Shown here one piece after another: positions 19,976 to 20,699 of a stretch of 44,654 nucleotides of DNA (within the stretch, counting starts at the first letter, position 1; every line of letters starts with the position of its first letter). The DNA comes from Octopus sinensis (Eukaryota). The position numbers were made by a program, and so were the translations under genes. The DNA lies in contig NW_021835242.1 in assembly GCF_006345805.1 (NCBI RefSeq), positions 1-44,654 on the forward strand, read 5' to 3'. The notes beneath the pieces are model-generated. The model was not told the DNA's origin. It was given only the letters and a program-made list of their open reading frames with translations, and ran no database searches.

Positions 19976-20299
19976 TTACAAAATAAAACGATTACCTACT
20001 ATCATGATTTCATTATAAACACTTGTAAAATGCAAAATGCAAGATGCAAGTATCTGTAAATCCTCAGCGTAGTCTGTCGTATTTCAAAACATATTTCACA
20101 TGTGTGTGTGTGTTCGTGTATATAACAAATTAAAAAGGGTGCATTAACAGCATTTAGAATCTAAAGGCAAAATTAATAGATGTTACAAAAGCGACAGACA
20201 GTACAGACTATCACACTTTTGCTAAAGTTAAGAGTTTAACTCGCAGCTACAAACGCATTGTCTTAAGTGACTGACAAAGGGAGGTAAGTCCCCAGTGTA

Positions 20300-20680
20300 C
20301 ATAGCCGGATCGCGATTTCGGATTTTGAGGTAGACCACCTTAATCCTAGGGTGAAACCCAACTGCTTTTGTTAGTCTTAAAAGAAAAACCGTTCAAAACG
20401 TGTGTGCTGATTTCAACTCTCATCTTTAGCAAAAGCAGTGTTAGTATACTCAGCCACTTTGTGATTTCTATGAATTTTGCAATTAGGTTCGAATTGTTAA
20501 TAAGTCACCCTTTTTGATTTTTTGTTTACACTTTTACCGTTTTCGAAATCAGCCCATGTTTTCAACGGTTTTTTCCTTATAAGACTTATACAGGTAGTTG
20601 TGTTTAACCTTAGGCGATAAGATCCGCTGATGAGGGTTAAGATGGTCAACATCAAAATCCGAAATCGCGATCCGGCTATG
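20300..20680. mobile_element. Foldback/MITE-like element with long inverted repeats, flanked by TA
   Basis: Terminal 29 bp catagccggatcgcgatttcggattttga perfectly inverted; imperfect similarity extends ~120 bp; TA at 20298-99 and 20681-82. Confidence 0.85.
20624..20675 (+). ncRNA. Type I hammerhead inside the right inverted repeat
   Basis: ccg-CTGATGA-gggtt..gatg gtcaa catc..aatcc-GAAA-tcgcga-TC-cgg. Confidence 0.75.
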
Positions 20681-20699
20681 TATTTAAGTAGTGTTTATA

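What the first reader, a model, noticed from the sequence alone, without database searches (positions are those of the whole stretch)
20298..20682. MITE-like foldback whose terminal inverted repeat is a hammerhead ribozyme
The right arm holds a complete HHR with canonical core, 5 bp stem II plus inner hairpin, palindromic stem III tcgcga and an AUC site at 20672, 8 nt from the element end. The left arm keeps the GAAA/stem III/stem I half perfectly but lacks 21 nt between cct microhomologies, which removes the CUGAUGA segment. The terminal 29 bp are identical while the inner arms have diverged, and TA flanks both ends, as for Tc1/mariner-type MITEs. It may be a DNA-transposon-mobilised element born from an inverted PLE end, or an RNA-mobilised foldback. 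I know no standard class with this combination. Stem I is only 3 contiguous bp.
Basis: partly seen in the sequence, partly recalled or inferred. Interest (0 to 1): 0.75.

Follow-up and report, generated by a model that had tools for sequence, protein, structure and literature searches.

The report
Broken hammerhead retrozyme copy, not MITE
This mirror-image stretch is a worn, one-side-truncated copy of a 336-base non-coding repeat that carries a predicted self-cutting RNA motif and was likely pasted into simple repeats by a Penelope-type jumping-gene enzyme; it is a known kind of element, and the DNA-transposon look is an accident of where this copy broke.

Summary
The sequence features are real (type I hammerhead motif at 20622-20677, 31 identical bases including both TAs, 21-nt deletion), but the MITE reading fails. 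The left arm runs 174 bp beyond the proposed end, to 20124. The TA is an internal dinucleotide: 56 of 61 family copies continue past it. The deletion is private to this copy. The stretch is a head-to-head insertion of a 336-bp, 39% GC, circularly permuted monomer, studied at 82 independent loci, about 11% from the family majority. The 3' ends sit at two internal sites (sharp at 189, diffuse at about 127-148 nt after the predicted cut site) and abut microsatellites. In 25 of 42 foldbacks one arm has the long end and the other the short end; none has two long ends. That is the published Penelope-type signature, so this is an old non-LTR retrozyme likely moved by Penelope-like enzymes. The window copy lost the end of its right arm and is predicted inactive. 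Cleavage, circles and the partner enzyme are untested. This scan has already noted the same anatomy for other families in this and other genomes.

The parts
20100..20123 (.). (GT)n/(AT)n microsatellite, the target abutting the long 3' end
   Evidence: sequence; 48 of 53 clustered family 3' ends have a simple repeat within 40 nt, against 428 of 2269 control windows
20124..20413 (-). left arm: retrozyme monomer positions 212>336/1>189, ending at the family's sharp long end (189); true left boundary of the insertion
   Evidence: about 81% to the family majority including gaps
20124..20173 (-). approximate one-sided 'tail' (monomer about 140-189), present on only one arm of family foldbacks
   Evidence: inner limit approximate
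20345..20347 (-). site of the private 21-nt microhomology deletion that removes CTGATGA from the left arm
20410..20413 (.). inversion junction of the two 5' ends, with 4-bp microhomology
   Evidence: 18 of 45 junctions overlap, 5 blunt, 22 with extra or unaligned bases
20410..20682 (+). right arm: monomer positions 71>336/1>10, broken about 130 bp before the expected short end
   Evidence: about 87% to the family majority
20622..20677 (+). type I hammerhead motif: stem I 20622-20626 with 20673-20677 (one mismatch), core 20627-20633, stem II 20634-20660, GAAA 20661-20664, stem III to 20671, predicted cut after 20672
   Evidence: the 3' strand of distal stem I is lost with the truncation
20712..20872 (-). 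piece of an unrelated, very high-copy repeat (SINE-like; label recalled) 30 bp beyond the broken end
   Evidence: 13 hits in the window; very high depth

Best explanation
The stretch is a decayed head-to-head insertion (20124-20682) of a 336-bp tandem, non-coding repeat with a type I hammerhead motif, likely a non-LTR retrozyme copied by a Penelope-like retrotransposon enzyme, whose right arm likely broke later just after the hammerhead. Shown: circularly permuted monomer, two internal 3' end sites, scattered 5' ends, microsatellite flanks, 3'-out foldbacks with one long and one short end. Inferred mechanism: source copies made multimeric RNA that the hammerhead cut to 336-nt units, probably ligated to circles. 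A PLE GIY-YIG endonuclease nicked an (AT)n/(AC)n target. One target strand primed reverse transcription at position 189 and the other at the AU-rich stretch about 45-55 nt upstream. Both cDNAs ran through the cut site, stopped at random points and were joined 5' to 5' by end-joining. The 'TIR' is the overlap of two copies of the same monomer segment, closed off by the later break.
For: Period 336 bp. One uninterrupted arm crosses the cut site once in 57 and twice in 12 of 82 loci. First sample, 44 loci: 31 of 69 outer 3' ends at 175-192 and 22 at 120-150; 25 foldbacks with 14 long+short, 0 long+long, 0 short+short, 11 with an unclassified end; 0 tail-to-tail. Second sample, 38 loci chosen for the long-end sequence: 17 foldbacks with 11 long+short, 0 long+long, 1 short+short (pieces 220 bp apart), 5 other. 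28 of 124 outer 3' ends fall exactly on 189. Microsatellite flank 48 of 53 against 19% in controls. Stem I switches C-G to U-A together in a subfamily (35/3/2/16; one evolutionary event). The circular majority monomer folds at z -4.8 against 60 shuffles. Head-to-head inversion, a tail on one arm and microsatellite bias are described for EN+ PLEs (PMC8557442, PMC3846280, passages); 150-450 bp low-GC tandem type I HHR repeats define non-LTR retrozymes (PMC7229834).
Against: No autonomous PLE sharing sequence was found: none of 40 outer 5' flanks shares sequence next to the element, and the one PLE-like family tested matched the monomer in 1 of 30 loci, the seed locus itself. 5' ends are not enriched at the cut site (4 of 146, p=0.86), so there is no genomic footprint of cleavage. 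The hammerhead region is no better conserved than the rest of the monomer (0.887 against 0.886). Only 17 of 64 units pass all motif checks, and no arm in that sample has two passing units. The catalytic fold costs 7.5 kcal/mol in the majority circle and 15.7 in the window copy. The tail (45-55 bp) is longer than the published 30-40 bp. The cause of the right-arm break is not shown.
Confidence: 0.85

Rival explanations
1. The monomer is the pseudo-LTR of an autonomous Penelope-like element, and these loci are its 5'-truncated, tandem and inverted insertions.
For: The insertion anatomy is that of PLEs (PMC3846280, PMC8557442). Xenopus retrozymes match PLE pLTRs (10.64898/2026.07.22.740005). PLE-like fragments are abundant here (8181 first-look candidates).
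Against: Arms longer than 336 bp run into another monomer, not into a body (12 of 82 loci cross the cut site twice). No shared upstream sequence in 40 flanks. The hammerhead has full-length stems rather than the minimal PLE form. The sample is a fraction of the family and the first two searches favoured monomer-rich loci.
Confidence: 0.1
2. A retrozyme RNA mobilised by a non-PLE LINE through twin priming.
For: Microhomology at inversion junctions (18 of 45); LINE twin priming gives 5' inversions (recalled).
Against: No poly(A) or template-encoded repeat tail; the two arms copy the same monomer positions, which ordinary twin priming on one linear RNA does not give (recalled model); fixed one-sided tail.
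Confidence: 0.03
3. Tc1/mariner-type MITE whose TIR is a hammerhead half.
For: 31 identical bases starting and ending in TA; identity of this segment is rare between copies (7 of 1808 pairs).
Against: The left end is internal (arm continues to 20124); TA is template-encoded; 56 of 61 copies run past it; no second locus with this pair of ends among 82; 8 exact 22-mer hits genome-wide with one inverted pair.
Confidence: 0.02

Closest known systems
Metazoan non-LTR retrozymes (Cervera and de la Pena 2020, PMC7229834; seen: passages, parts 2 and 4 of 6, section 14. Li, Clavereau and Pollet 2026, 10.64898/2026.07.22.740005; seen: parts 1-3 of 5)
   Same: Non-coding 336-bp monomer, 39% GC, type I hammerhead with a 2-bp stem III capped by a palindromic tetraloop, tandem units, self-paired predicted circle, co-occurrence with PLE-like sequence. 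The mussel repeats are 350-390 bp.
   Different: Old and decayed (about 11% from majority), at most about two units per arm in the loci seen, no evidence of abundant RNA. Stem II has an internal loop and second hairpin. About half the loci are head-to-head foldbacks with paired ends, which the parts I read do not describe for retrozymes.
EN+ Penelope-like element insertions (PMC8557442 and PMC3846280; passages seen)
   Same: 5'-truncated head-to-head inverted copy, tail on only one arm, microhomology at junctions, microsatellite targets (Naiad, Chlamys).
   Different: No RT or GIY-YIG ORF and no shared body; tail about 45-55 bp rather than 30-40 bp; canonical-size hammerhead; template circularly permuted.
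Tc1/mariner MITEs (features recalled)
   Same: Only the superficial look of the 20298-20682 sub-stretch: short, non-coding, inverted ends, TA at both sides.
   Different: No fixed ends, no TA duplication, no family with this structure.

Membership tests
Tc1/mariner MITE | TIRs at the true termini of the element | tested here: not met
   left arm continues 174 bp beyond 20298
Tc1/mariner MITE | TA target-site duplication outside the element | tested here: not met
   TA is monomer position 9-10; 56 of 61 copies continue past it
Tc1/mariner MITE | many copies with the same two ends | tested here: not met
   no second such locus among 82; 8 exact 22-mer hits, one inverted pair
Tc1/mariner MITE | autonomous transposase with matching TIR | not tested
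   no transposase search was run; the other tests made it moot
Metazoan non-LTR retrozyme | type I hammerhead motif in each unit | tested here: met
   core intact in 28 of 64 units, all checks in 17 of 64; no Rfam hit in the window
Metazoan non-LTR retrozyme | 150-450 bp monomer in tandem | tested here: met
   336 bp; 12 of 82 loci cross the cut site twice
Metazoan non-LTR retrozyme | GC below 50%, non-coding, no LTR body | tested here: met
   GC 0.39; no ORF of 150 aa or more in the element in the first 31 loci; no shared 5' flank in 40
Metazoan non-LTR retrozyme | 'active' by Li et al.: two consecutive units with complete hammerheads | tested here: not met
   no arm with two passing units among the 44 loci scored; the 38 later loci were not scored; this concerns present activity, not family type
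Metazoan non-LTR retrozyme | self-cleavage in vitro | not testable with these tools
   prediction only; one compensatory stem I change
Metazoan non-LTR retrozyme | expressed as linear and circular monomer RNA | tested here: inconclusive
   only short low-depth pieces of diverged copies in contigs of guessed RNA runs; contigs cannot show circles or ends
Metazoan non-LTR retrozyme | target-site duplications when present | tested here: inconclusive
   flanks are microsatellites; no empty site recovered
Autonomous EN+ PLE or its pLTR | RT plus GIY-YIG ORF joined to the repeat | tested here: not met
   sample of 82 loci, not the whole family
PLE-type insertion anatomy | head-to-head inverted 5'-truncated copy | tested here: met
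   42 of 82 loci are 3'-out foldbacks, 0 tail-to-tail
PLE-type insertion anatomy | tail on one arm only | tested here: met
   25 long+short, 0 long+long, 1 short+short, 16 with an unclassified end, of 42
PLE-type insertion anatomy | microsatellite target bias | tested here: met
   48 of 53 against 428 of 2269

The most novel reading that the evidence does not exclude
The family is a fossil record of a PLE enzyme copying a circular hammerhead RNA from both target strands at once, starting at two fixed internal sites 189 and about 140 nt after the cut site. That gives direct genomic evidence for the proposed but unshown PLE mobilisation of retrozymes and names the RNA element (monomer about 125-190) that sets initiation. 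I did not find paired ends described for retrozymes in searches.
Probability: 0.55. Interest if true: 0.45.

Novelty: new member of a known kind. Interest (0 to 1): 0.25.

Why it matters
The specific claim, a DNA-transposon-like element with ribozyme TIRs, is not real. The family adds one more case that animal retrozymes integrate with Penelope-type ends. The papers read propose PLE mobilisation from co-occurrence and pLTR similarity, not from insertion anatomy. The two start sites give a concrete test of PLE initiation, but this family is old, so younger families noted elsewhere in the scan are better material. It is also a caution for annotation: truncated PLE-type foldbacks mimic MITEs.

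Tried and rejected
Rfam scan of the window: no hammerhead among 134 matches at E<=1. Partner search: a GIY-YIG-like fragment near one copy (L009:28-555; Pfam GIY_YIG_2 only E=0.061) belongs to a large family, but its flanks share nothing with the monomer in 29 of 30 loci, the other being the seed locus. A Pfam family search for a PLE domain could not be run. Expression: no RNA holder listed; guessed RNA contigs gave only short diverged pieces, uninformative. Empty or orthologous site: none recovered; the X1 joint 20118>20729 has only 22 letters on its short side between two repeats and was disregarded. Gene conversion between the arms: rejected, 0 shared derived changes. 5' ends at the cut site: no enrichment. 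Sequence look-up in earlier findings: nothing. Rows dropped before counts: L013, L016 and L024 as segmental duplicates of L014 (shared flanks), and repeat fetches of the same locus; L017 and L025 were merged by the same-sequence filter. No search for a transposase was run. Supplements of the papers were not read and may list this family.

Full report
Observation. On the + strand there is a type I hammerhead motif with CTGATGA at 20627-20633, GAAA at 20661-20664 and a predicted cut after C20672. The inverted repeat 20298-20347 with 20633-20682 is 92% complementary, its outer 31 bases are identical, and the left arm lacks 21 nt between 3-bp microhomologies. A contig of run X1 matches 20299-20666 without a difference; that run may be the source sample. 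Rfam lists no hammerhead among 134 matches at E<=1.

The proposed ends are not ends. A search of the 2.72-Gb own genome gave 342 candidates, 40 scored, the best other places 78-84% identical. With a query widened by 300 bp, homology runs left from 20298 to about 20120 in many copies. Anchoring on the terminal segment, 56 of 61 copies continue past the TA into more monomer. An exact search for the terminal 22-mer gave 8 hits genome-wide, two of them this window, and no other inverted pair. The catalytic core is deleted in 2 of 64 units, by different deletions. The 29-mer is identical in 7 of 1808 between-locus pairs, so the window's perfect match is a mild outlier. It equals the family majority, and the arms share no derived change over 210 sites (81% identity; background 80.4 +/- 3.7%). 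Nothing points to conversion or to a maintained TIR.

What the family is. Alignment of copies gives a 336-bp period with 39% GC. I numbered the monomer from the first base after the predicted cut. Four searches plus one motif search gave 82 independent loci after removing repeat fetches and segmental duplicates. First-look candidate counts of 342-784 suggest several hundred copies; they are not copy numbers. Copies average 88.6% identity to the majority. One uninterrupted arm crosses the cut site once in 57 loci, twice in 12 and not at all in 13, so the template was a circle or a multimer. None of 40 outer 5' flanks shares adjacent sequence with another, so no coding body is attached in this sample.

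Ends. In the first 44 loci, 31 of 69 outer 3' ends lie at 175-192 and 22 at 120-150, and 48 of these 53 have a simple repeat within 40 nt, against 428 of 2269 control windows. Over all 82 loci, 28 of 124 outer 3' ends fall exactly on 189; the 146 5' ends are spread over the monomer, 4 of them near the cut site (p=0.86). Foldbacks have 3' ends outward: 25 of 44 loci in the first sample, 17 of 38 in the second, and no tail-to-tail case. End pairing was long+short in 14 and 11, long+long in 0 and 0, short+short in 0 and 1, with an unclassified end in 11 and 5. The second sample was chosen for the long-end sequence, which makes the absence of long+long pairs more telling and short+short pairs less likely to be seen. 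Of 45 inversion junctions, 18 overlap, 5 are blunt and 22 have extra or unaligned bases.

The window copy. The left arm (minus strand, 20124-20413) runs from monomer 212 through the cut site to 189 and abuts a (GT)n/(AT)n tract. The right arm (20410-20682) runs from 71 to 10. The two 5' ends meet at a 4-bp microhomology. By the pairing rule the right arm should end near 140; it stops about 130 bp short, 30 bp before a piece of an unrelated high-copy repeat (20712-20872). A later deletion is inferred, not shown. That break leaves a 31-bp match ending in a template-encoded TA, which is the apparent TIR.

The ribozyme. The majority form has a 5-bp proximal stem I, an internal loop and a longer distal stem I that the window copy has lost. 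The core is intact in 28 of 64 units and all checks pass in 17. Stem I changes C-G to U-A together in a subfamily (35, 3, 2, 16); this is one inherited event among several subfamily markers, so it is modest evidence of selection on source elements. Copies themselves decay evenly (hammerhead region 0.887, rest 0.886). The majority circle folds at -94.7 kcal/mol against -66.3 +/- 5.9 for 60 shuffles; forcing the catalytic fold costs 7.5 kcal/mol. For the window copy the catalytic fold is -5.5 against -21.2, and in a read-through transcript its 3' half pairs with the left arm at probability 0.86-1.0. It is predicted inactive. RNA data were uninformative.

Mechanism. Shown: monomer, permutation, end sites, targets, pairing rule. 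Inferred: hammerhead processing to 336-nt units, probable circularisation, nicking of a microsatellite by a PLE endonuclease, priming from both target strands at 189 and about 140, and 5'-to-5' joining. Because both arms copy the same positions, two template units are needed (two RNAs, a multimer, or a circle read twice). The partner is unknown: a GIY-YIG-like family seeded from L009 has 8181 first-look candidates but shares no sequence with the monomer.

Comparison. PMC7229834 (passages, parts 2 and 4 of 6, section 14) defines non-LTR retrozymes as 150-450 bp, low-GC tandem repeats with type I hammerheads and proposes PLEs as mobilisers. 10.64898/2026.07.22.740005 (parts 1-3 of 5) links them to PLE pLTRs in Xenopus. 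PMC8557442 (passages) and PMC3846280 (passages) describe head-to-head inverted copies, a 30-40 bp tail on one arm and microsatellite bias for EN+ PLEs. Searches listed no paper on a hammerhead MITE or on paired ends in retrozymes; I saw only listings for most hits and read no supplements. MITE features, twin priming and the SINE label are recalled. Earlier notes of this scan, seen after I had obtained the pairing result, report the same anatomy for families of 308-565 bp in this and other genomes; they are unchecked and not independent evidence.

Verdict. A real but ordinary, decayed member of a known kind; the MITE reading is an accident of truncation. Interest 0.25.

Noticed in passing
L009:28-555 (+) and L032-L061: Abundant PLE-like family with a Cys cluster before a GIY-YIG-like domain (8181 first-look candidates) and a microsatellite-rich 3' UTR; one of 30 loci (L035) has a minimal hammerhead-like motif about 1.1 kb past the stop.
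   Followed up: partly
L013, L014, L016, L017, L024 and L025: One retrozyme insertion lies inside a larger segment of 1 kb or more duplicated on several chromosomes at 84-95% identity.
   Followed up: no
L002:1290-2265 and L157:527-1858: Complex multi-arm insertions with later local duplication (L002 arms 98-99.5% identical; L157 a three-piece unit repeated twice).
   Followed up: no
window 20014-20034 and 20679-20699: 21-nt, 81% inverted match between the sequence just past the broken right end and DNA about 90 bp left of the insertion; AT-rich and probably chance, but it could mark a template switch at the break.
   Followed up: no
window 20712-20872 and 12 other places: Pieces of a very high-copy SINE-like repeat; its tail directly abuts broken retrozyme ends in L010 and L015 and a short end in L094.
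   Followed up: partly
L001:784-1179 and L020:2360-2756: A 399-bp, 95% identical repeat about 140 bp left of the insertion (window about 19581-19976), unrelated to the monomer.
   Followed up: no
L088 and L112: Two single-arm copies between microsatellites start 2-4 nt before the predicted cut site; not a significant enrichment.
   Followed up: yes
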